Source: Escherichia phage vB_EcoM_ECOO78
Sequence record: KY705409
Strand: one strand, 5' to 3'
DNA: 41,289 nt
Shown one piece after another: positions 3,889 to 36,600 of this stretch. The notes beneath the pieces were generated by a model, which saw only the letters and a list, made by a program, of their open reading frames with translations, was not told the origin of the DNA and searched no databases. Every line of letters begins with the position of its first letter. The stretch's first letter is position 1. A program made the position numbers and the translations under genes.

Positions 3889-4866
3889 TTATGCTACAAC
3901 AGAATTGCTACTTGCCTGGTTATCGTTTGCGGCTGCTGCTTCCATTATGCGCCCCTGCGCTGTCTGGAAATAGGTTTCATCAAGTTCAATTCCTATGAAG
4001 TTACGGCCTTCATTGATGCAGGCGACTCCTGTTGACCCGCTCCCCATAGTGAAATCTAGAACCGTTTCGCCAGGGTTTGAATATGTCCTGATGATGTCAG
4101 CCAGCAGTGCTACCGGCTTCTGTGTTTGGTGAAGGCCGGTATAATCCTTTTTGTACTGAAGAACGTTAGATTTGTATTTTGCACCATCCGCCAGGTTAAA
4201 CCTGCGGGCAAACCTGCGGTCAATTTCTAACATTTCAGCATAAGTCATAAGCCAGTCACACACACTAAGCCCATAGTGCGCAATAATCTGGTTGTATGTC
4301 TTTTCAGTACACAGCCCGAACTGCGTTGATTCAACATAAAAAAAGTGTTCCGCGCGCCTGTGACCTAAATCAGTGTTTATCTGCTTTATATTTCTGCCAA
4401 TGTATTCCATGATTTTTTTGGCATAATCCCTTAGCGGATGCTGTGCCAGCGTGTCATATTTCTTGAAGAACACCACTAAATCTTCAAAGTATGAAACAGG
4501 CGCTTTATTTACCAACAGCGAGTTAGAGAAATGGTCTTTCAGCCACATTAGTCGATAACTGAAAGGCAGATTTCCATGCGCCGCTGTGATTAACTTGCTG
4601 GTGTAAGGTTCCTGGCTGAACAGAATAAGAGCGCCGTTAGTTCGCAAAACGCGGTTGCATTCTTCAAAAATGGCCTGCGGAGAAATAGCGTTATCCCATT
4701 CAGCGTTCGCAATTCGTGAATAGCGTTCTTCACCCTTTCCCATTCCGCCAGCGGTGCCATACGGCGGATCACACAGAACCAAATCAACGCTACCGGCTGG
4801 AATAGACTTCATAACTTCCAGGCAATCACCTAAATGCAATTCGTATTTATTCACAATGCTACCCAT
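3889..4866 (-). CDS. DNA methyltransferase (N6-adenine/N4-cytosine type, beta-class motif order)
   Basis: DPPY catalytic motif near N-terminus (LVLCDPPYG) and SAM-binding FTMGSGSTGVAC near C-terminus; AT-richer than surroundings. Confidence 0.85.
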   Translation of the reverse strand: MGSIVNKYELHLGDCLEVMKSIPAGSVDLVLCDPPYGTAGGMGKGEERYSRIANAEWDNAISPQAIFEECNRVLRTNGALILFSQEPYTSKLITAAHGNLPFSYRLMWLKDHFSNSLLVNKAPVSYFEDLVVFFKKYDTLAQHPLRDYAKKIMEYIGRNIKQINTDLGHRRAEHFFYVESTQFGLCTEKTYNQIIAHYGLSVCDWLMTYAEMLEIDRRFARRFNLADGAKYKSNVLQYKKDYTGLHQTQKPVALLADIIRTYSNPGETVLDFTMGSGSTGVACINEGRNFIGIELDETYFQTAQGRIMEAAAANDNQASSNSVVA

Positions 4867-16936: not shown

Positions 16937-17175
16937 ACGATCACCTTTGCGCTCAGGTATCCGCAACGTAGTTTCAGCTTTACTGTTTTGCTTTGGTTCT
17001 TGTACGGGTAATCACCGCCAGCTTTTATTGAAGCATAACCACCGCTGGAAAATTCAGGCGAGCGGGTTAAAGCCTTCACATCCTTGTAAAAAAGTTCTCG
17101 CAGCTTGGCTTTTTCCATCACCTTTTCGGTGTGCATCCTGGTACGTAGTGTGTTGAATTCGTTATTTGTCATCAT
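16933..17175 (-). CDS. Hypothetical protein
   Basis: 80 aa ORF overlapping ParB-like gene end. Confidence 0.4.
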   Translation of the reverse strand: MMTNNEFNTLRTRMHTEKVMEKAKLRELFYKDVKALTRSPEFSSGGYASIKAGGDYPYKNQSKTVKLKLRCGYLSAKVIV

Positions 17176-18043
17176 TCACCCCACCAACGTAGTCAGCCAC
17201 CAGCGCCATGAATTCACGCACCACGCCAGCAGGTGCGCGCAGGGTCATGGATTCGTCAGGCTCGGCATCTTCCAGCCGGTCATCGCTGTGGACCAGTTCG
17301 ATTTGCACAGCCAGGTCAGCCAGGCGCGTCAGCTTGTCTTTGCCGAACGGTGGCTGGATGGCTTCCGTCTTGGACTTAGGCGCTTTCGGTGCCTTCGGTT
17401 CGGTGAATTTCTTTGTTACTTTATCCTTGCCAGCGGCTTTGGCTTCTTCCAGCGCCTGTGCGGCCACGGCTTCGGCTTCGGTGCCGTGCTGGCGGGTTAG
17501 TTCAGTGGCGGTCACGTAGGACATCTGGCCACCGCGTACCATGTCTTTGATTGGTTCCGGGCACTCAGCCAGGGCCAGCATGTTGGCCACGTCTGACGGG
17601 CTGCGCTTCACCTTCTTGGCTATCTCGTCATTGGTCCAGCCCTGCGCTTTCAGGCGCGCATAGGCTTTGGCGCGTTCCAGCGGTTCCAGCGGCTTGCCCT
17701 GGCTGCTGGTGACCATCAGCGCGATTTTGTCAGCCTCACTGGTGCCGGTGATGTCGTTCACTTCCAGGCGCAGTTCCAGGCCGGTTTCTGCGGCCATCTT
17801 GGCACCAGCAAAGCGGTGGTGGCCGTCAATCACCTTGATGCCCTGCTGCGTCACTTCCACGGTCAGCGGCGGCACATATTCACCGGCCAGGTACGCATCG
17901 CGGAATTCTTCAACGTGCGCCTGGTCCACGTCGCGAATGTTGTAGCCATCTTCCACATACAGTTCAGCCAGCGGCACCCAAAACACCTTGCGCGGCGTTG
18001 CTGCGGTTTGTTTTGATTTATAAAGTTGCCCGATAGTAGCCAT
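17162..18043 (-). CDS. ParB-like nuclease-domain protein (ParB/Srx fold N-terminal domain)
   Basis: Motif KVIDGHHRFAGAKMAA; Lys/Ala/Pro-rich central linker; no ParA partner in window. Confidence 0.65.
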   Translation of the reverse strand: MATIGQLYKSKQTAATPRKVFWVPLAELYVEDGYNIRDVDQAHVEEFRDAYLAGEYVPPLTVEVTQQGIKVIDGHHRFAGAKMAAETGLELRLEVNDITGTSEADKIALMVTSSQGKPLEPLERAKAYARLKAQGWTNDEIAKKVKRSPSDVANMLALAECPEPIKDMVRGGQMSYVTATELTRQHGTEAEAVAAQALEEAKAAGKDKVTKKFTEPKAPKAPKSKTEAIQPPFGKDKLTRLADLAVQIELVHSDDRLEDAEPDESMTLRAPAGVVREFMALVADYVGGVNDDK

Positions 18044-18123: not shown

Positions 18124-18825
18124 TCATTGTTTACGGTAACCTTTGCCAGAAAGCCAAATTGAAATTTCTGTGGCAACACCAATGTCAAGACTGGTTTTTG
18201 TAGTGGCCGCAAAGTTAGCCAGTTCGTAAAGTATTTCATCACGCGCTTCACATTCATTCAGGTCGGCTTCTAACTGCGCATCGCTGGGTTTGACAGCATC
18301 GCGCTTCACATCAATGCAAGCGGTTTCTAATTCATTCTTATCCACCAGGCGGTAAGCAATGATGTCACCGCTACTTCCATGATGCGACCATACAAAATCG
18401 CCTGCTCTGTCATTACTGAAATGAAGCGGGCTAGGTTTCCGGAATTTGACTTCAACAATTGTGTCACTATCCACCGGACATTCACCACCATGCCAATCAA
18501 TCCAGCCGTTATTGCCAAGCACGGCTTGACTGGCTGCCATCGCGGATTCGTATTTTTCGCGAGTTACAATTGATATGTTCCAGTCATTAGCAGTAATGTA
18601 ATGGCGGAAGTTTCCTTCAAATGGTCTGTCGCCATAAATCCAGTCATCACCATCTTTATTACTGCACCATTCGCCTGCTTTAATATGCAAAAAATTGATT
18701 GATTTTGAAAATTTTACAGTTCCGTCAGAATCCTGCACTGCATAGTTAGCCGCTTTAGGCCACCCGCCAACTTTAGGAAGTGTTTCGACCAGTATTTGCA
18801 GCAGGGTTTTATTTGATGTGTTCAT
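18124..18825 (-). CDS. Hypothetical protein (AT-rich moron candidate)
   Basis: 233 aa ORF; lower GC than flanks; own upstream AT-rich promoter-like region plus hairpin and GAGGTAA RBS. Confidence 0.5.
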   Translation of the reverse strand: MNTSNKTLLQILVETLPKVGGWPKAANYAVQDSDGTVKFSKSINFLHIKAGEWCSNKDGDDWIYGDRPFEGNFRHYITANDWNISIVTREKYESAMAASQAVLGNNGWIDWHGGECPVDSDTIVEVKFRKPSPLHFSNDRAGDFVWSHHGSSGDIIAYRLVDKNELETACIDVKRDAVKPSDAQLEADLNECEARDEILYELANFAATTKTSLDIGVATEISIWLSGKGYRKQ

Positions 18826-25562: not shown

Positions 25563-25889
25563 TCAATAACCGATAGCGAACCAGTCAACGGTTAGTGTTG
25601 TGGTTCCTGGCACCGTTCCTTCGTTCTGGACGCCGCCAAGAATGCTTGAAAATGTGGTTAGCGTCCGACCACTGATATTGGCATATTCAAGAATAATGTT
25701 TGCGTTGTCTCTTGGCGTAGCCTGAATGCTTACCACAGCCGTAGGGAACGGTTTTGGAAACGTGACACTATGCGTGCCCTGGTACATACGTGTATCGGTT
25801 GTGCCTGCACCAGATGTAACGGTGCTGGTGAAACTACCCCACTGAATAATCAGTGCCGCCAGGTAATTCCTGGTATCCTTGCGCTGCAA
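25563..25889 (-). CDS. Hypothetical protein downstream of tail-fibre assembly gene
   Basis: 108 aa ORF, Thr/Gly-rich. Confidence 0.45.
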   Translation of the reverse strand: MQRKDTRNYLAALIIQWGSFTSTVTSGAGTTDTRMYQGTHSVTFPKPFPTAVVSIQATPRDNANIILEYANISGRTLTTFSSILGGVQNEGTVPGTTTLTVDWFAIGY

Positions 25890-25922
25890 GGTTTTTGTTA
25901 GTGATGCCCCTTAAGACTTCGC

Positions 25923-26252
25923 TCATACATTGGTTGCCTCATTCGTTGCGCCAATCAGCGCGGCCACGTCAGGGTTTGCGTTCAGGAATTCTCGCAGTTT
26001 ATCAACCGGGCTTGCCGGTTGGTTATCGTTAGCTGGCGATACGCTAATCAGTTCCCACTTTGCGCCGTTCCAGCGTGGCCATTGGTCACCTGAAAATTCA
26101 GGCGGTGCCACCTCTACGCAGCGTGCAGGAATTAGAAAAACACCAGGTTCAAGCGGTGATTCATCAGCATCTGTCTGGCCAACAAAAAGGCCAGCGACGT
26201 CATATTGATAAACTGGTTTTGTCTTCATGATTCGCCTCAAAATTTGATGCAC
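25923..26252 (-). CDS. Tail fibre assembly protein (Tfa/gpG-like chaperone)
   Basis: 109 aa; position after fibre gene; start may be the internal MKTKPVY. Confidence 0.6.
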   Translation of the reverse strand: MHQILRRIMKTKPVYQYDVAGLFVGQTDADESPLEPGVFLIPARCVEVAPPEFSGDQWPRWNGAKWELISVSPANDNQPASPVDKLREFLNANPDVAALIGATNEATNV

Positions 26253-27574
26253 GCCAGTAGAGCGATGTTTCGCGGTCTGGTTTCTGTACCGCCTGTGGAT
26301 CCAGTGCCAATTCCTTCTGGATAATTGCCGCTAGTGCCCTGGTTCCAGGCGTCAGCAATAAGGTTTGCAGCTCCGTTTGCTACAAATTCACTCCCCAATC
26401 TGTGATAGTGGCTTTTTATTTCATCGGCCTGATAGCTACCTAGTGACCGTGAAGCGTCTACACCTCTACCGTCATCATATCCTCTGATGAATTCTCCGCG
26501 CAGATCTGGCAAATTGAACGTGTTAACACCGTCACCATTGCCAAATATTGTTCCTATTACAGAAAAAAGATTTGCATAAGCCGTTCTACTGATCGCAGCC
26601 CCATTGGCTTTCAACCATCCTGTCGGTGCCGTAGAGCGTGGAAAATAAACAATTCCACCTGTCGGCATCTTTTGGTCAGTTTCCGTTTTGCTGTAAACTT
26701 CAAGGTTGCTCCGTGACTCGGATTTACTTGCAACATCTGAAAGGTTTTTACTTCTTTCCAGTGGAGCATGTGCGCTTCCTGCTGGTTCATTGTTCACAGC
26801 CTGCAAAATCGACCCATCTGGGTAAGGCTTCCCAAGTGTAAATTTCGACGAGTCAGTTGCATCAGGCTGCCACTCATCAACACCAGAACCTTGCGGCAGC
26901 CTGATGCCTTCGATATACACCGCCAGGCCGCGTGTTATGGTTGTTGTCAGCATCACTACAGTCTGGTTGGCTGCCAATGTTTGTTTTTCGGTGATGGTAT
27001 CAACCACAACGTTTGCTTGTGTAGGGTCAACCCAATGGACGTCACCGTCAGCGTTTGACTGCTTTGCAAGAACCTGCCCGGTTGTGCCACCAGGGATGAT
27101 GGTTCCTGCTGTCACGTTGTTAGAAATCCACTGCTGTGTGACAACCACAACATTTGGGTCAACTTGTAGGGTGATAGTGCTGGCGTTGCTTACCATGAAG
27201 TCAAGCCGCACAACCGTGTCAGAGTAGGCACCTTCTGTATCAACCGGCTTGTAAGTAGATGGAAGATCGCCAACAGCAAACAGAGAACCATCAGCGTCAA
27301 AAACACCAACCTCACGCATAGTAAAACCACCAACGCTGGCCGGGATAACCAATTCAGCAGTGAAGCGCAGCGGGTTATTTGCATCCTGATAAACGCGGTT
27401 GATGGTTGCGCGGAAACGTTCACGCACCAACTGCGTCTGATTTGGATTAGGCGGCGCAGCATTTCCGTTGCCGTCGCCAACTGCCATATGCGTCAACCGG
27501 ATTTGCGTTCCTGTTGATTCAGCCTGCGCAAGCTTTTGCAGACCATAGTTAGTATGAATTGTAAGAAATGGCAT
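26237..27574 (-). CDS. Tail fibre protein with C-terminal tail-collar domain
   Basis: Start MPFLTIHTNYGLQ with GAGG RBS; C-terminal FNLPDLRGEFIRGYDDGRGVD collar-like segment. Confidence 0.8.
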   Translation of the reverse strand: MPFLTIHTNYGLQKLAQAESTGTQIRLTHMAVGDGNGNAAPPNPNQTQLVRERFRATINRVYQDANNPLRFTAELVIPASVGGFTMREVGVFDADGSLFAVGDLPSTYKPVDTEGAYSDTVVRLDFMVSNASTITLQVDPNVVVVTQQWISNNVTAGTIIPGGTTGQVLAKQSNADGDVHWVDPTQANVVVDTITEKQTLAANQTVVMLTTTITRGLAVYIEGIRLPQGSGVDEWQPDATDSSKFTLGKPYPDGSILQAVNNEPAGSAHAPLERSKNLSDVASKSESRSNLEVYSKTETDQKMPTGGIVYFPRSTAPTGWLKANGAAISRTAYANLFSVIGTIFGNGDGVNTFNLPDLRGEFIRGYDDGRGVDASRSLGSYQADEIKSHYHRLGSEFVANGAANLIADAWNQGTSGNYPEGIGTGSTGGTETRPRNIALLACIKF

Positions 27575-27627
27575 TGTGTTTGGCCTCAATTTTAAAATTT
27601 GCTACCCCACCGAAGTGGGGTTGTTTG

Positions 27628-29871
27628 TTAAATCAAGCCATAAATAGCGTTATGAATATGCAGTGTACCTACTTCACCAGAAACTGCAAAGTTAACCCTT
27701 GCTTTACTTGCACCAGGCGGAACAATGTCTACGAGCGCATAGAATCCCCAAGCATTCACAGAAGGTATATTAAAAGGTATTTTCCCTTGAACGCTGTTGC
27801 CCTCTTTATCAAAGAATTCAATTGATGCCAGTGATGTCACAGCGTTCTTTGCCCAAAACCCAAGTTGAAAATAGCGGCCAGGTGAACAGTCAAGGCAGTC
27901 TTGGTAGAAATCTGCTGTCGCACCAACGGAAGGGACAGTTACGTATAGCGATCTTGAAAACATGATTGTATTTGGTACGTCAGTATCAGTACCTGCCGTA
28001 ACAACACCGCTTCCGGTTTGCATTAAACTCCAGTTTGAATAGTTTGAAAATTGTCCACTGCCATTCGACAATGAGTTTATGTAAGCACTAACAATGTTAC
28101 CTTTATCCCAATTTGCTGTTATAAAACCAGCCCTGGGATAACAACCATAAGACATTACTTTCTTACTGTTCCCACCAATAATTTGACGCGCAGCAGCACC
28201 AGCGGCAATCTCTGTTTGCTCATATAGAGGAAGCGAACAGTTTGTTAGCGAGACGACCGCATCATCATTTGCAACGATTGGTATAGCTGAATATCCAGAT
28301 GGAGTTAGCAGCGTTGAATCTTTAATACTCAATCTGGAACTGCCGCCAACCACAAATGCAACAAAACTTTGACCTGGTTGAAATTCAATGTTGCCATTTG
28401 CGTAAACAACTGTTGCGTTGTCCTCCAATATTATGTTTGGGTCAAAATATCCTGCCTTCTTCCCGGCAGGCATTGAGCAACCATTAAATATAAACTGCCC
28501 ATTTTTGAATTTTAATGGCCCGCCATTGTCTACCATCCAGCAATGATTGAAGTTAATCACTTCTCCTGAGTTCGCAGGTGAATTAAATATGAGTGTGTCA
28601 TTAAAGCTGCGTGAAATAGCGCCTTTATCGAAAATAATCCGGTAAGAGTTGTCAAGAAACTCTAATCCAGCAGAAGATATGAAACCAAAGTTACTTATCC
28701 GCAATTCAGATAGTTCACCCGTTCCCGCTCCGCCAAGCGCAATTTTTTTTGTTCCAGAAAACTGAAATGCGACCCCATCCAATATGGCGTTTGCGTTAAT
28801 TGAATCTCGGTCAGCATAATCGGTGTTTGAGTTGAAAAGCTTCAACGCATAATCACCTGGAATTCCTTCAATTTCTGTAAGTGTGCATTTGTTTGCGCCT
28901 CTTACACTTCCTTTGCTGAAATCAATTTCTATTGCGGAAGAAAACGCGCCGGAACATGGAATAAAACAATCGTATCCTGCGGAATTCACTTTATTGATGT
29001 AAACAGCAATGTCGCCGCTTCCCGTATATCCGGCGTCAAATACATTTACCTCACCAGCAAAGAAAAGTCTCCGCCATTTAACACCTACGCCGTCAAATAC
29101 TACCACGCCATCAGGCGTTTCAGTGTTTTCAACTGCAACAAATGTGCCACCACCTTTATTAGAACCGGCGATGTATGATCTGACAAGTATCTTATCGCCA
29201 ACAGATGCGCCAGAAACAGATGCTAACTGAGCTACAGAATCAACGTCACCGATTAGATTCATTCCCTTGTTTGATGCCAGGATTTGGCTAAAGGATTTAT
29301 TACCAACGCTAGTCCAGGCTCCAGGGGAAACGCCACCTGTTTCGGAAGGTGTTGAACCTTCTGTTACTACTTTCGGCATCACTCCGCCCCAGGTGTAGCA
29401 CTGACCACCAGCAATATGCCAGACAGCTTCAGAAGCGTTACTGACTGTCGCCCCCGCCTCAAAGCTACCGTTAACAAGCGTTATTCCTGCATCTGCCAGC
29501 GATCTGCGCCATTGTTCACGGCTGTTTGATTCGATGTTAGCGGACTGCGATTCTATGGATTCAGCCGCAGCCTCTGCGCGATCTGCGGCGCTGCTTGCTT
29601 CGCTAAGTTGCTGTTGAACATCGATACATTGAAACGTAACTTTAACTCCGTCAACGCTGCCTAGTGATACCTGCATGTCATAAATTCCGTCTGGCGCGTA
29701 AAACTGTATTTTACCGTCAGAACCTGCGGTGAAAGGATTGGTAAGATTAGCGCCGCTAACGGTCTTTAATCCTGTGGCTAAGGTTGATGTGCCAGACAAA
29801 AAAATTGACACTGTAGCAGATGGAATAAGGTTTCCGTTTCTGTCTTGGGCGAAGTATGTTTTCAGTTCCAC
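27628..29871 (-). CDS. Tail spike/fibre with beta-helix (pectate-lyase-like) receptor-binding or depolymerase domain
   Basis: 747 aa; conserved N-terminal anchor then long Gly/Asn/Ser-rich repetitive central region; AT-richer than flanks. Confidence 0.7.
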   Translation of the reverse strand: MELKTYFAQDRNGNLIPSATVSIFLSGTSTLATGLKTVSGANLTNPFTAGSDGKIQFYAPDGIYDMQVSLGSVDGVKVTFQCIDVQQQLSEASSAADRAEAAAESIESQSANIESNSREQWRRSLADAGITLVNGSFEAGATVSNASEAVWHIAGGQCYTWGGVMPKVVTEGSTPSETGGVSPGAWTSVGNKSFSQILASNKGMNLIGDVDSVAQLASVSGASVGDKILVRSYIAGSNKGGGTFVAVENTETPDGVVVFDGVGVKWRRLFFAGEVNVFDAGYTGSGDIAVYINKVNSAGYDCFIPCSGAFSSAIEIDFSKGSVRGANKCTLTEIEGIPGDYALKLFNSNTDYADRDSINANAILDGVAFQFSGTKKIALGGAGTGELSELRISNFGFISSAGLEFLDNSYRIIFDKGAISRSFNDTLIFNSPANSGEVINFNHCWMVDNGGPLKFKNGQFIFNGCSMPAGKKAGYFDPNIILEDNATVVYANGNIEFQPGQSFVAFVVGGSSRLSIKDSTLLTPSGYSAIPIVANDDAVVSLTNCSLPLYEQTEIAAGAAARQIIGGNSKKVMSYGCYPRAGFITANWDKGNIVSAYINSLSNGSGQFSNYSNWSLMQTGSGVVTAGTDTDVPNTIMFSRSLYVTVPSVGATADFYQDCLDCSPGRYFQLGFWAKNAVTSLASIEFFDKEGNSVQGKIPFNIPSVNAWGFYALVDIVPPGASKARVNFAVSGEVGTLHIHNAIYGLI

Positions 29872-30474
29872 TTAAGCACCTATAGATATATTTGGTTGCA
29901 CCATAACATAGTCATTCAAAGCACCAACAAATCTGGTGTAGTTCGTCAGACTAATTTCATTTCCTGTGCCACAGACAATGGCAGCAGTCGTTTTACTTTC
30001 TGACTTAACAATCAACTGCGTTTCATCCAGGTGCGAACGCAGGTTTTTGTTAGTGTCAATCACTTGTAGTATTTTTTTAAAATCTTCTTGAGTTAACGGA
30101 TATTGATTAGCAGTAATGTAAACATCAAATGTGTACGGCTGGCCAATCGGGCTTTGTTTAAACCACTCAAGGATCTGAATCTGGTAGCCCAAAGCAACAA
30201 GCTGACGCGTAACAGCCCCGATAGTGCCTTTTATGCGCTGCGAATAAACCGACTCTTTAATTACCTTGCGTTTCTGCTCGTCTGACCAGGTAGTATCCCA
30301 ATCGTCAACGCTGAACGCCCAAGCCAGCCAGGGCAGAACGCTTGATGGGCAGGTGTCAGGGTTCCAGACTTCACGCACGACAACCGGAACGTCACTAATC
30401 CTGGCTATTGTTTCAGCCAGTGCGCGTTCCTGTTCTGTTGAATTATATGGCAATAAGTCAGACATCAGTATCAC
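29872..30474 (-). CDS. Baseplate protein (P2 gpI-like)
   Basis: 200 aa; position after J. Confidence 0.7.
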   Translation of the reverse strand: MILMSDLLPYNSTEQERALAETIARISDVPVVVREVWNPDTCPSSVLPWLAWAFSVDDWDTTWSDEQKRKVIKESVYSQRIKGTIGAVTRQLVALGYQIQILEWFKQSPIGQPYTFDVYITANQYPLTQEDFKKILQVIDTNKNLRSHLDETQLIVKSESKTTAAIVCGTGNEISLTNYTRFVGALNDYVMVQPNISIGA

Positions 30475-34554: not shown

Positions 34555-36600
34555 TTACGCGTTGCGGCCTAGGCAGAAGGATTCAACGCGGCGCACCGCA
34601 AAATCCACGTCCTGGAATACCACGATGCGCAGGCCACCGGATTTGCTCAGGCTGTACGGGTCAACAGTCATATCCAGGCCACCCCACATACCAACCACCA
34701 GGTCAGCGAAGTTGCCAAAGAACACGTCACCATCCTGCACCTGGTTGGTAACTTCGGCGCGGTAACCGTTCAGGGTGTTGCCCGGCTCCCAAATCACGCC
34801 AGCGTCAGCAACGGAAGAACCACTGGCAAACTTCGGCGTGGTTTTCGCAGCGCCACGGCCACGCGCGTTAAGCACATATGCCATGTTGTTCACGTCAGCG
34901 TTGTCAGCCGCGATTTCGGTTTCCATCTGCACCAGTTCCGCATAAGTCGGATTGGCTGCTGCGAAGTCTACCGCGTTAATGCCGGTGTAGTTCGCCAGGC
35001 CAAGCGGCTGGTTGCTGGTGCCTGTGCCGTAGTAACCAGCGTAATCAATCGCCTGCGCGATAGCTGCCACCAGGTCACCACGCACGATGGCTTCCGCATC
35101 CGGGGTGGATTGCATCAGCAGGCGGCGTGTAATGTCGGTGTATGCCGCAACAGTTTTCGGTGACAAGCCAAGCTGGCCGATGGTCGGCGTGGTTTCGGTT
35201 GCGTCATCACCTTCACCAATCCAGTAGGCAGTAGCACCGCCAGTCTGTTTTGGGATTTCGACGTTGCCAACCAGGCCGCCCATAGTACGCGCCAGGCGCA
35301 TGATGGTGGTGCGCGGGCGCAGCAGGTCGATGAACGAACCGGCCATAAAGTCAGTGCCAACCAGGTTAGAACCGGTTTGAGCGCCTGCCGGGGTGTTCGG
35401 TGCGCCACCAGCGTTGAATGCACGCAGAACATCGTCAGGGATCAGGATGCCTTTTGCACTGCGGCCATACTGCTGTTGCGCTGCGTGGCTGCATTCGATT
35501 TCAAACGCTGCGGCACGCTGTGCGGCTGCATCGTTCGGGTTAGCCAGAGCGCGAACCACGTTGAAAATGCTGTAGCGGCGGATGTCTTTGTCAGACATAC
35601 CAATCACGCTGGACGGCATTTCTGACAGCGGCTTGCTGCCTGAACGGGTGCCATCAGCCGGTTGTGCCGGGTCTTTCGGCTTGTTCAGGTGGTCCAGCAA
35701 GGAACGCTGGAAATCTTCGGCGGTGGTGCCTTCGCCAATCGCTTTCAAAGCCAGGTCACGTGCGTTGTACTTCTCGCCCATCTCAGTGATGGAACGCACG
35801 CGCGCTTTTTCAGCTTCACGGCCACGCTGTTCAGCGTTGCGCGTATCATCGCCAGCACGTTCCAGCATTTCCAGAACCTGCGTGATGTTGCCTTTTTCGT
35901 CTACCATTGCGCGCACCAGGTTACCGGCTGCGTCGCGCAGAATTTTTTCCATTCTAATGCCCTCAGATGCAATATTTGTTGGTGCTGGAACCTCTACGGT
36001 GCCCGCAGTATCGGATTTGCCGACGCGTTGTTCTTCTTGGGGTTTGTCAAACGCACGCCCAATGCCAACGCTGGTGTCAGCGGGAACGCTCACAATTGAA
36101 ATTTCGAACGGTTCCCATTCAGTGATGCGGTAGACATCCTGCCACTCGTCACGCGTTTCCTGTAGCTTGGCCGCTAACACGCGGTAGCCAACGGAAACAT
36201 GCTTGCGAATGCCGTCAACGATGTCCTGGAAAATCTCGTCAGCGCGTGCACTTCGGCCAAAGCGCACCACAGCCCGCCCCCGGCGGTCAGCGTCAATGCT
36301 GACTGATTCAACAACGCCCACCTGGTCAGTCCAATCGTGGTCAACCAGCAGCGCCCCACCGTCACGCAGACGGTCCAGGCGCACGCTTTCCGGCGAATGG
36401 TCCAGAATTTCGATACCGTACCAGCGTTCAACCTCGATTTCGGATGAAAACGCCAGTTCTACGGTGCGTTTTTCGGTGTCAAACTTGCGCACTTCCATAG
36501 TGCGCACCAGCCCGCCTTTGTTGAAATCAGGCAGCGTTTTGCTGTCTGATTTGCGGGTAAATTCGGCCCCAATGATGCTATTCAGCAGGTTTTTCTGCAT
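34555..36600 (-). CDS. Fused prohead protease, scaffold-like linker and HK97-fold major capsid protein
   Basis: 681 aa: N-terminal HK97-type prohead protease-like region, charged coiled-coil linker, C-terminal capsid-like domain; possible internal in-frame start at 35952 (GAGGG RBS). Confidence 0.75.
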   Translation of the reverse strand: MQKNLLNSIIGAEFTRKSDSKTLPDFNKGGLVRTMEVRKFDTEKRTVELAFSSEIEVERWYGIEILDHSPESVRLDRLRDGGALLVDHDWTDQVGVVESVSIDADRRGRAVVRFGRSARADEIFQDIVDGIRKHVSVGYRVLAAKLQETRDEWQDVYRITEWEPFEISIVSVPADTSVGIGRAFDKPQEEQRVGKSDTAGTVEVPAPTNIASEGIRMEKILRDAAGNLVRAMVDEKGNITQVLEMLERAGDDTRNAEQRGREAEKARVRSITEMGEKYNARDLALKAIGEGTTAEDFQRSLLDHLNKPKDPAQPADGTRSGSKPLSEMPSSVIGMSDKDIRRYSIFNVVRALANPNDAAAQRAAAFEIECSHAAQQQYGRSAKGILIPDDVLRAFNAGGAPNTPAGAQTGSNLVGTDFMAGSFIDLLRPRTTIMRLARTMGGLVGNVEIPKQTGGATAYWIGEGDDATETTPTIGQLGLSPKTVAAYTDITRRLLMQSTPDAEAIVRGDLVAAIAQAIDYAGYYGTGTSNQPLGLANYTGINAVDFAAANPTYAELVQMETEIAADNADVNNMAYVLNARGRGAAKTTPKFASGSSVADAGVIWEPGNTLNGYRAEVTNQVQDGDVFFGNFADLVVGMWGGLDMTVDPYSLSKSGGLRIVVFQDVDFAVRRVESFCLGRNA
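36032..36048 (-). repeat. Copy 3 of exact 17-bp motif, inside protease-capsid gene (encodes DKPQEE)
   Basis: Plus strand TCTTCTTGGGGTTTGTC. Confidence 0.9.

What the first reader, a model, noticed from the sequence alone, without database searches (positions are those of the whole stretch)
27628..29871. AT-rich tail spike with probable beta-helix depolymerase domain, plus a second fibre with collar domain
The 747-aa protein has a conserved N-terminal anchor followed by a long repetitive Gly/Asn/Ser-rich region typical of right-handed beta-helix polysaccharide-degrading spikes. The gene is markedly AT-richer than the baseplate genes, suggesting horizontal acquisition. With the downstream collar-domain fibre, assembly protein and a 108-aa unknown, this forms a dual receptor-binding cassette that probably sets host range.
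Basis: inference. Interest (0 to 1): 0.45.

Follow-up and report, generated by a model that had tools for sequence, protein, structure and literature searches.

The report
Known O78-specific phage tailspike Dpo42
This gene is the already published tail-spike depolymerase Dpo42 of E. coli phage vB_EcoM_ECOO78: a beta-helix enzyme whose sugar-cutting part is a swapped-in module shared with many phages of E. coli O78, so the finding is correct but ordinary.

Summary
ORF 27628..29871 (-) encodes 747 aa and is AT-rich (GC 0.44, GC3 0.36, against 0.54-0.58 for baseplate genes).

The window is the complete genome of Escherichia phage vB_EcoM_ECOO78: 41,289 bp and GC 53.07%, both as published. The ORF is its ORF42, "Dpo42". 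Both published cloning primers match the ORF ends exactly. Guo et al. 2017 purified Dpo42 and showed spreading semi-clear spots on the O78 host.

What the tools add:
- Residues 131-747 match the crystal structure of CBA120 tailspike protein 4 (PDB 5W6H, E=3e-243), which degrades the E. coli O78 O-antigen.
- An AlphaFold model has the same fold: beta-helix plus a carbohydrate-binding-like C-terminal sandwich.
- The same module occurs in podo-, sipho- and myoviruses recorded on O78 hosts, and in P22-like prophages.
- Residues 1-~195 are a Jilinvirus-specific anchor, joined elsewhere to many other enzyme domains.

Dpo42 is therefore most likely an O78 O-antigen (and O-antigen capsule) endoglycosidase, not a classical K-capsule depolymerase. 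The downstream collar fibre is conserved across the genus. The "108-aa unknown" is a frameshifted 120-aa fibre-tip-domain gene. Verdict: already known, low interest.

The parts
27628..29871 (-). Tailspike gene = ORF42 / Dpo42 of phage vB_EcoM_ECOO78, 747 aa, GTG start
   Evidence: ORF listed. Both cloning primers of Guo et al. 2017 match 29871..29856 and 27628..27648 exactly. phrog_4217 'tail protein' E=3e-276.
29626..29871 (-). Residues 1-82: N-terminal beta-sandwich, the Jilinvirus-type baseplate anchor (attachment role is inferred)
   Evidence: Invariant N-terminus in 67 homologues. AF2 pLDDT is 82-93 and the domain is all-beta. Only weak Ig/transthyretin-like fold matches, including small phage tail and neck proteins. 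No significant Pfam hit.
29491..29619 (-). Residues 85-127: single long alpha-helix, presumed trimeric coiled-coil neck
   Evidence: AF2 helix H85-127. Trimerisation is inferred, not modelled.
29302..29481 (-). Residues 131-190: TD2/D2-type 'Tail_spike_N' head domain
   Evidence: PF18668 E=2.7e-15, 56.6 bits against a cut-off of 25. Matches the D2 region of CBA120 TSP1, TSP3 and TSP4 and G7C gp63.1 by sequence and by fold.
29062..29301 (-). Residues 191-270: short neck helix plus D3'-type insertion domain. The main recombination breakpoint lies at residues ~194-198.
   Evidence: Breakpoints. Aligns with TSP4 residues ~503-557, which PMC7506556 describes as D3'. AF2 secondary structure.
28072..29061 (-). 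Residues 271-600: right-handed parallel beta-helix (D3), the presumed glycosidase body
   Evidence: Alignment to 5W6H. AF2 pLDDT is mostly 75-93. Foldseek hits are 5w6h_A, 8iq5/8iq9, 7xyc, 6w4q and 7vz3. Acidic residues invariant in all 26 aligned sequences: D287 D301 D317 E333 E386 E389 E404 D415 E437 D448 E496 D537.
27631..28071 (-). Residues 601-747: C-terminal beta-sandwich (D4), similar to carbohydrate-binding modules
   Evidence: Foldseek hits to CBM4, CBM16, CBM22 and CBM61-type sandwiches over ~141-167 columns. TSP4 D4 is described as a twisted beta-sandwich resembling carbohydrate-binding proteins (PMC7506556).
29872..30465 (-). P2 gpI-type baseplate protein, 197 aa from the ATG (200 aa from the GTG). 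Its C-terminal half is also AT-rich.
   Evidence: PF09684 E=6e-50. TIGR01634 E=1e-44. GC is 0.507 in the N-terminal half and 0.380 in the C-terminal half.
26237..27574 (-). Second receptor-binding protein: tail fibre with a P2 gpH-type N-terminus and a T4 gp12-like collar domain. 445 aa from the ATG (450 aa from the TTG at 27589).
   Evidence: PF12571 E=1e-50 and PF07484 E=3e-23. PDB sequence hits to long and short tail fibres, including T4 gp12. 69-76% identical to the Arya and ECO1230-10 fibres except residues ~390-420.
25923..26228 (-). 101-aa conserved small gene (109 aa from the GTG at 26252), a possible fibre chaperone
   Evidence: phrog_1766 E=3e-17. Only weak hits to the tail-fibre-assembly families phrog_105 and phrog_35518, E~3e-4 to 8e-4. 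No Pfam or NCBIfam hit. 79-88% identical in Arya and ECO1230-10.
25563..25926 (-). Gp53-like_C fibre-tip-domain gene, split by a 1-nt insertion at ~25853 into a 30-codon stub and the 108-aa ORF
   Evidence: PF21882 E=3e-13. The ep3 orthologue is an intact 120-aa ORF with a full-length domain match, E=1.5e-15. Pairwise DNA alignment shows one extra C in the window. Stub translation.

Best explanation
The gene encodes Dpo42, the tailspike of the Jilinvirus phage vB_EcoM_ECOO78.

Architecture. It is a modular protein, presumably a homotrimer:
- residues 1-82: a genus-specific beta-sandwich;
- residues 85-127: a long helix, which with the beta-sandwich fixes the spike to the P2-type baseplate next to gpI/gpJ (inferred);
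- residues 131-190: a TD2-type head domain that works as a portable joint;
- residues ~195-747: a D3' domain, a parallel beta-helix and a CBM-like D4. This is a horizontally exchanged receptor-binding and catalytic module of the 'O78 subtype' also carried by CBA120 TSP4.

Mechanism.
1. The spike binds the O78 O-polysaccharide. That polysaccharide is present both on LPS and in the chemically similar group 4 'O-antigen capsule' of O78 strains.
2. It cleaves the polysaccharide endolytically, most likely with carboxylate residues at subunit interfaces.
3. The virion thereby moves down to the outer membrane.
4. There the conserved gp12-like collar fibre engages a secondary receptor and triggers contraction.

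What is shown: the identity of the gene; homology and fold; halo-forming, non-lytic activity of the purified protein (literature); O78 O-antigen cleavage by the homologue TSP4 (literature).

What is inferred: that the O78 O-antigen is the substrate of Dpo42 itself; the catalytic residues; the mode of baseplate attachment; the role of the fibre.
For: Identity:
- Window length 41,289 bp and GC 0.5307 equal the published genome, and both primers match the ORF ends.
- 99.4% nt identity to vB_EcoM-ep3, genus Jilinvirus.

Fold and homology:
- 5W6H at E=3e-243 over residues 131-747.
- The AF2 model has 5w6h_A as top hit at E=1e-66, then K2-2 TSP with TM 0.75-0.77 normalised to the target.

O78 link:
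- TSP4 degrades the O78 antigen (PMC8825819; PMC8217332; PMC10408124).
- The phage was isolated on E. coli O78-3.
- Phages carrying the module are recorded on O78 hosts: EC1-UPM (O78:K80), AVIO78A, ASO78B, phiWAO78-1 and XT18/32/73. phiHAO78-1 is recorded on APEC strain E19057, and its O78 link rests on its name.
- Prophage copies occur in ETEC H10407 and in poultry isolates.

Modularity: breakpoints, and varied Pfam content in proteins that share the N-terminus.

Activity: semi-clear, spreading spots down to sub-nanogram amounts, with no lysis.

Capsule reconciliation: O78 strains lack a classical capsule and have a group 4 capsule of O-antigen-like composition (PMC4313913).

Roles of spike and fibre: Dpo42 acts on 15 of 34 isolates but the phage lyses only 5 of 34. 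This fits a serotype-specific spike plus further host requirements.
Against: - No chemical analysis of Dpo42 products exists. Guo et al. assign the target to 'capsular polysaccharide' from capsule staining.
- Identity to TSP4 is only ~57-60% by BLAST/Foldseek. Homologues 64-70% identical sit in Salmonella prophages, so specificity could have drifted.
- The serogroups of the 15 sensitive clinical isolates are not reported.
- Catalytic residues of TSP4 itself are not experimentally validated in the papers I could read.
- The trimer and the baseplate docking were not modelled.
Confidence: 0.85

Rival explanations
1. Dpo42 is a genuine K-antigen (group 1-3) capsule or biofilm-exopolysaccharide depolymerase, as the original paper states. 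The O-antigen is not its substrate.
For: Guo et al. report loss of the capsule by negative staining and prevention of biofilm on 15 of 34 isolates. The structurally next-nearest solved spikes are Klebsiella capsule depolymerases (K2-2 TSP, Depo32, DpK2).
Against: - The sequence relatives at 50-75% identity are all in phages or prophages of O78 E. coli or are O78-verified.
- O78 strains are reported to lack a classical capsule and to carry an O-antigen-type group 4 capsule.
- The Klebsiella matches are only 17-19% identical.
- A 2020 review lists the Dpo42 substrate as unknown.
Confidence: 0.08
2. The module has the TSP4 fold but its specificity has drifted. It would cut a different, related O-antigen, or modify rather than cleave the polysaccharide.
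For: Only ~57-60% identity to TSP4. Close homologues exist in Salmonella enterica prophages, which do not carry the E. coli O78 label. EP75 TSP4 shows that the same fold can have a different, unknown target.
Against: - The isolation host is named O78-3.
- Every cultured phage with the module that records a serotype records O78.
- About 120 positions are invariant across the 26 aligned proteins, among them 12 acidic residues in the beta-helix.
- Published clustering places O78 receptor-binding domains from several genera in one subtype despite divergence.
Confidence: 0.06
3. The AT-rich segment is not a horizontal acquisition. It would merely reflect local composition or selection on spike genes.
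For: The conserved N-terminal part of the spike, the C-terminal half of gpI and the collar fibre are also below genome GC. Arya and ECO1230-10 show the same dip with unrelated catalytic modules.
Against: Residues ~195-747 have no homology to the spikes of the sister phages Arya and ECO1230-10. They are 51-75% identical to spikes of podo-, sipho- and myoviruses and of P22-like prophages, with sharp breakpoints. That pattern is direct evidence of module exchange.
Confidence: 0.03

Closest known systems
Dpo42 (ORF42) of Escherichia phage vB_EcoM_ECOO78, Guo et al. 2017 (PMC5539073)
   Same: It is the same gene: 747 aa, GTG start, primers match, and genome length and GC are identical.
   Different: Nothing differs in sequence. 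The paper calls it a novel capsule depolymerase only distantly related to others. The 5W6H structure and the O78 phage genomes now place it in a well-populated O78-specific tailspike family.
CBA120 tailspike protein 4 (ORF213), enzymatically active domain, PDB 5W6H
   Same: The TD2 head domain, D3' domain, beta-helix D3 and beta-sandwich D4 align end to end, residues 131-747 against chain residues 84-697. The fold is the same. The expected target, the O78 antigen, is the same.
   Different: TSP4 has a 335-residue N-terminus (anchor domain plus three T4 gp10-like XD domains) and a D1 domain, which build a branched four-spike complex. Dpo42 instead has an 82-residue beta-sandwich plus a long helix and sits on a P2-type baseplate. 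BLAST identity is only ~59%.
P22-like (Lederbergvirus) prophage tailspikes of E. coli and Salmonella with the PF09008 head-binding domain (e.g. WP_272592177 in E. coli ZY22049)
   Same: Residues ~194-747 are 64-70% identical to these, and ~76-80% identical in nucleotides to the ZY22049 copy.
   Different: They carry a different N-terminal adaptor, the P22 head-binding domain, and belong to a podovirus virion. Dpo42 has no PF09008.
Tailspikes of sister Jilinviruses (Enterobacter phage Arya gp15, ECO1230-10 gp17)
   Same: Same gene position after gpI. Residues 1-~190/223 are 60-75% identical and include PF18668.
   Different: The catalytic bodies are unrelated. Arya's is a pectate-lyase-like PF12708 domain, and ECO1230-10's has no Pfam match.
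P2 gpH / T4 gp12-type fibres (for the neighbouring 445-aa fibre)
   Same: It has the PF12571 N-terminal domain typical of P2-type fibres and a Collar PF07484 domain matching T4 gp12 and other short-fibre structures.
   Different: It is much shorter than P2 gpH, and it coexists with a tailspike on the same baseplate. Its receptor is unknown.

Membership tests
Dpo42 of vB_EcoM_ECOO78 (identity with a published protein) | Genome of 41,289 bp with GC 53.07% | tested here: met
   Window length is 41,289 and GC is 0.5307, against the paper's abstract.
Dpo42 of vB_EcoM_ECOO78 (identity with a published protein) | 747-aa ORF amplified with primers GTGGAACTGAAAACAT and TTAAATCAAGCCATAAATAGC | tested here: met
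   Exact single matches at 29871..29856 (-) and 27628..27648 (+).
O78-subtype tailspike receptor-binding module (CBA120 TSP4 type) | Sequence homology across D3', D3 and D4 of TSP4 | tested here: met
   phmmer E=2.8e-243, residues 131-747 against chain residues 84-697 of 5W6H. 26-sequence alignment with ~120 invariant positions.
O78-subtype tailspike receptor-binding module (CBA120 TSP4 type) | Parallel beta-helix followed by a beta-sandwich D4 | tested here: met
   AF2 model with pLDDT 70-93 over residues 130-747. Foldseek top hit is 5w6h_A, and the tail matches carbohydrate-binding modules.
O78-subtype tailspike receptor-binding module (CBA120 TSP4 type) | Association with E. coli O78 hosts | tested here: met
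   Host is O78-3. Recorded hosts of phages with the module are O78. Prophage copies occur in ETEC H10407 (O78:H11 from my own knowledge; my literature search for this found nothing) and in poultry isolates.
O78-subtype tailspike receptor-binding module (CBA120 TSP4 type) | Endolytic cleavage of the O78 O-polysaccharide | not testable with these tools
   Published for TSP4. For Dpo42 only halo and capsule-staining data exist.
O78-subtype tailspike receptor-binding module (CBA120 TSP4 type) | Homotrimer with active sites at subunit interfaces | not tested
   Only a monomer was modelled. Conserved acidic residues are listed.
Kuttervirus TSP4 orthologue (branched TSP complex organiser) | N-terminal anchor domain plus XD1-XD3 gp10-like domains and a D1 domain | tested here: not met
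   Homology to TSP4 and PhaxI begins at query residue ~117-133, equal to TSP4 residue ~418. Residues 1-127 are a beta-sandwich plus helix with no such match.
P22-type tailspike | N-terminal head-binding domain PF09008 | tested here: not met
   The Pfam scan returns only PF18668. Homology to these proteins starts at residue 128-198.
Pfam PF18668 Tail_spike_N (TSP1/Gp66 N-terminal domain) | Score above the gathering threshold | tested here: met
   56.6 bits against a cut-off of 25, residues 132-190.
Jilinvirus tailspike (genus-specific anchor) | Conserved residues 1-~190 and a gene position between gpI and the collar fibre | tested here: met
Classical K-antigen capsule depolymerase | Substrate is a group 1-3 capsular polysaccharide distinct from the O-antigen | tested here: inconclusive
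   Claimed from staining. Comparative data point instead to the O78 antigen or group 4 capsule. No chemistry is available.
Tail fibre assembly chaperone (P2 gpG / Mu gpU type), for the 101-aa neighbour | Match to the Caudo_TAP / tail-fibre-assembly profiles | tested here: inconclusive
   No Pfam or NCBIfam hit. Only weak PHROG hits, E~3e-4.

The most novel reading that the evidence does not exclude
The published assignment of Dpo42 as a 'novel capsule depolymerase only distantly related to others' would be wrong in substance. Dpo42 would be an O78 O-antigen endoglycosidase of the CBA120 TSP4 subtype, mounted on a P2-type myovirus baseplate through a distinct 82-residue beta-sandwich/coiled-coil anchor. 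In uncultured relatives that same anchor carries a dozen unrelated enzyme classes (glycosidases, lyases, SGNH esterases, sialidase-like domains, phosphodiesterases). The Jilinvirus anchor plus TD2 joint would then be a general plug-in socket for engineering host range on a small contractile-tailed phage.
Probability: 0.6. Interest if true: 0.3.

Novelty: already known. Interest (0 to 1): 0.15.

Why it matters
Practically, it corrects how a widely cited antibiofilm enzyme should be understood. Dpo42 appears in 64 papers, and a review lists its substrate as unknown. If its target is the O78 O-polysaccharide, its spectrum is predictable by serotyping. That makes it useful against avian-pathogenic and ETEC O78 strains, and not a general E. 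coli antibiofilm agent.

It is also a clean example of one receptor-binding module crossing at least five virion architectures. No new biology or open question hinges on it.

Tried and rejected
- Sequence-level repeats in the spike: none. TRF found nothing and self-BLAST found nothing. 'Repetitive' holds only structurally.
- Identifying the N-terminal 1-134 residues by sequence against PDB and Pfam: no significant hit. By fold there are only generic Ig/transthyretin-like matches, so the docking partner stays inferred.
- NCBIfam: no model for the spike, the 101-aa protein or the 120-aa protein.
- Plattner et al. 2019, the primary TSP4 paper: not held. TSP4 facts are cited through later open-access papers.
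- Literature confirmation that H10407 is O78:H11: the search returned nothing. That serotype is from my own knowledge.
- Catalytic-residue assignment: not possible without a trimer model or validated TSP4 residues. Only conserved acidic residues are listed.
- AT-richness as proof of horizontal transfer: rejected as sufficient evidence, because unrelated spike modules in sister phages are equally AT-rich.
- tRNA scan of the window: none found.
- The large protein-representative search and the metagenome and genome locus scans were not used. The first homologue search already answered the question.
Full report
**Observation**

The window holds a 747-codon ORF at 27628..29871 on the minus strand. 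Its GTG start directly abuts the stop codon of the upstream gene.
- The gene is clearly AT-rich: GC 0.440 and GC3 0.358.
- The neighbouring baseplate genes V, W and J are 0.54-0.58, and the sheath gene is 0.563.
- Residues 250-650 are rich in Gly (11.5%), Ser (10.5%) and Asn (8.0%).
- There is no sequence-level repetition. Tandem Repeats Finder finds nothing and a self-BLAST gives only the identity hit. Any repetition is structural only.

**Identity**

The window is a known genome.
- A 5.2-kb stretch around the gene is 99.4% identical to Escherichia phage vB_EcoM-ep3, genus Jilinvirus.
- A paper that cites ep3 describes phage vB_EcoM_ECOO78, with a genome of 41,289 bp and GC 53.07% (PMC5539073). 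The window is 41,289 bp with GC 0.5307.
- That paper's ORF42, 'Dpo42', is 747 aa. Both of its cloning primers, GTGGAACTGAAAACAT and TTAAATCAAGCCATAAATAGC, match the two ends of this ORF exactly and nowhere else.
- The finding is therefore Dpo42 itself.

- Plaques have growing haloes.
- Purified Dpo42 makes semi-clear, spreading spots down to sub-nanogram amounts.
- It does not lyse cells.
- It removes stainable capsule.
- It acts on 15 of 34 clinical isolates, while the phage lyses 5 of 34.
- Phyre2 modelling failed at that time, and they called the protein a novel capsule depolymerase.

A 2020 review still lists its substrate as unknown and its relatives as distant.

**Start codon**

RefSeq annotates the ep3 orthologue as 682 aa, starting at Met66. 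That annotation is truncated. About 90 homologues align from their residue 1 to residue 1 of the 747-aa form, and MELKTYFAQD is invariant in 67 aligned sequences.

**Anatomy**

Family scans, PDB sequence search and two AlphaFold models give the following map.

| Residues | Element | Evidence |
|---|---|---|
| 1-82 | Beta-sandwich, pLDDT 82-93 |. Only weak, generic Ig/transthyretin-like fold matches, including small phage tail and neck proteins. No significant Pfam or PDB sequence hit. |
| 85-127 | One long helix, presumably a trimeric coiled coil | |
| 131-190 | PF18668 'Tail_spike_N', 56.6 bits |. This is the D2/TD2 head domain of CBA120 TSP1, TSP3 and TSP4 and of G7C gp63.1. |
| ~191-270 | Short neck helix plus the D3' insertion domain | Domain described for TSP4 in PMC7506556 |
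| ~271-600 | Parallel beta-helix | |
| ~601-747 | Beta-sandwich matching carbohydrate-binding modules | |

- The whole stretch 131-747 aligns with the crystal structure of the CBA120 TSP4 active domain, 5W6H, at E=2.8e-243.
- The model's best Foldseek hit is 5w6h_A at E=1e-66. Klebsiella K2-2 TSP follows, then Kp7 gp52, CBA120 TSP2, Depo32, DpK2 and Acinetobacter depolymerases.
- The beta-helix depolymerase reading is therefore confirmed by sequence, by fold and by published activity.

**Mosaicism**

BLAST ranges against 120 database homologues fall into two sharp classes.
- Proteins sharing residues 1 to ~186-223. These are the spikes of Jilinvirus-type phages, including Arya and ECO1230-10. 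Their C-termini carry unrelated Pfam domains: PF12708, PF13229, PF13088, PF13472/PF00657, PF03629, PF03009, PF09992, PF01095, PF03372 and PF13884.
- Proteins sharing the C-terminal part up to residue 747, starting at one of three points:
  - residue ~194-198: P22-like prophage spikes with a PF09008 head-binding domain in E. coli and Salmonella, and the XT18 group;
  - residue ~117-136: CBA120/PhaxI TSP4, the PhAPEC5/7, Bp4 and EC1-UPM podoviruses, the PD06 group and O78 siphoviruses;
  - residue ~70-86: a few metagenomic proteins.

This pattern is direct evidence that the catalytic body was exchanged horizontally, with the TD2 domain and neck acting as joints.

AT-richness agrees with that but is not specific evidence. 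The unrelated spike bodies of Arya and ECO1230-10 are both 0.438, and the P22-like prophage copy is 0.368 against flanks of 0.509. The C-terminal half of gpI also dips, to 0.38-0.44.

**Substrate**

- CBA120 TSP4 degrades the E. coli O78 O-antigen (PMC8825819; PMC8217332; PMC10408124). An O78 receptor-binding-domain subtype spanning several genera has already been described.
- ECOO78 was isolated on E. coli O78-3.
- In the phage collection, the records that carry this module and state a serotype all state O78: EC1-UPM (O78:K80), AVIO78A, ASO78B, phiWAO78-1 and XT18/32/73. phiHAO78-1 carries O78 in its name but its host is recorded only as APEC E19057.
- Among complete E. coli genomes the module occurs in 18. 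These include ETEC H10407, where an IS66-family element interrupts it, APEC17, ACN001 and several poultry isolates. That H10407 is O78:H11 is from my own knowledge.
- O78 strains are reported to lack a classical capsule. They carry a group 4 capsule with O-antigen-like composition (PMC4313913).

The last point explains how an O78-specific glycosidase could strip 'capsule' in Guo et al.'s staining. I therefore conclude, with confidence ~0.85, that Dpo42 is an O78 O-polysaccharide endoglycosidase and not a K-antigen depolymerase. No product chemistry exists. Identity to TSP4 is only ~57-60%, and close homologues occur in Salmonella prophages, so drift of specificity is not excluded.

**Neighbours**

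The gene order is conserved in ep3, Arya and ECO1230-10: gpV, gpW, gpJ, gpI, spike, collar fibre, 101-aa gene, variable ORF, sheath.
- **Collar fibre.** It has PF12571 plus Collar PF07484, with sequence matches to T4 gp12 and other solved fibres. It is 69-76% identical along its whole length to the fibres of phages from different hosts. The exception is a hypervariable patch at residues ~390-420, at 17-20% identity. So the spike, not the fibre, is the wholesale-swapped determinant. The fibre probably binds a more conserved secondary receptor (inference).
- **101-aa gene.** It is conserved at 79-88% identity. It has only weak hits to tail-fibre-assembly PHROGs, so 'assembly protein' remains a guess.
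- **108-aa ORF.** It carries a Gp53-like_C fibre-tip domain, PF21882, E=3e-13. Relative to ep3, the window has one extra C at ~25853. This splits an intact 120-aa ORF that is ATGA-coupled to the upstream gene into a 30-codon stub and the 108-aa ORF. This slot is variable in the genus: a 257-aa glycine-rich protein in Arya and a 56-aa remnant in ECO1230-10.

**Mechanism**

1. Six trimeric spikes are anchored through the N-terminal sandwich and coiled coil to the periphery of a P2-type baseplate (inferred).
2. The beta-helix and D4 bind O78 repeats and cleave them (inferred from TSP4; the halo activity is shown).
3. This moves the virion through the LPS and O-antigen-capsule layer.
4. The gp12-like fibre then binds near the membrane and triggers sheath contraction (inferred).

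The gap between 15 of 34 isolates sensitive to the enzyme and 5 of 34 lysed by the phage fits this two-step scheme plus intracellular barriers.

**Verdict**

The object is already published, and its receptor-binding module belongs to a known, structurally solved subtype. The only additions are:
- reassignment of the likely substrate;
- the domain map;
- the corrected start codon for ep3;
- the frameshifted neighbour gene.

Novelty: already known. Interest: low.

Noticed in passing
window 25834-25926 and 25563-25889 (-), indel at ~25853: Relative to phage ep3, one extra C splits a 120-aa Gp53-like_C (PF21882) gene into a 30-codon stub and the 108-aa ORF. In ep3 the gene is intact and ATGA-coupled to the upstream 101-aa gene. 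This could be a sequencing error or a real frameshift.
   Followed up: partly
L001 8228-10471 (vB_EcoM-ep3, ep3_0041): The RefSeq CDS of the ep3 spike (682 aa) starts at Met66 and omits 65 N-terminal residues that are invariant in about 90 homologues. It leaves an unexplained 195-nt gap after gpI. Otherwise the ep3 protein differs from Dpo42 by a single residue, S609L.
   Followed up: yes
proteins P0032-P0120: The Jilinvirus-type anchor (residues 1-~195) is fused in uncultured relatives to very different C-terminal enzyme domains. By my reading of the Pfam accessions these are pectate-lyase-like, generic beta-helix, BNR/sialidase-like, SGNH/GDSL esterase, SASA, GDPD phosphodiesterase, NAGPA, pectinesterase, Exo_endo_phos and S74 chaperone domains. 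Together they form a broad plug-in repertoire.
   Followed up: partly
L005 7001-12005 (E. coli ETEC H10407 chromosome): The prophage copy of the same spike module, next to a holin/GH19 lysis cassette, is interrupted by an IS66-family element (ISCro1). This leaves a 484-aa C-terminal ORF and an N-terminal pseudogene.
   Followed up: partly
window 26237-27574 (-), fibre residues ~390-420: The collar fibre is 69-76% identical to those of Arya and ECO1230-10 throughout, except for one ~30-residue patch that drops to 17-20% identity. That patch is a likely receptor-contact loop.
   Followed up: partly
window 29872-30170 (-), C-terminal half of gpI: The C-terminal ~100 residues of the P2 gpI-type protein are as AT-rich (GC 0.38) as the spike body, and they are the least conserved part against ECO1230-10 (50-60% identity). 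This region may be the docking surface that co-evolves with the spike anchor.
   Followed up: partly
window 3889-4866 (-) and 18124-18825 (-): There are two other low-GC islands (~0.43). One is a DNA methylase (PF01555). The other is a 233-aa protein with no Pfam hit, lying beside a ParB-HTH protein (17162-18043).
   Followed up: partly
window 34555-36600 (-): A 681-aa ORF lies at the position that the ep3 record annotates as 'major head protein'. Its unusual length suggests a fused prohead protease/scaffold plus capsid protein. No family scan was run on it.
   Followed up: no
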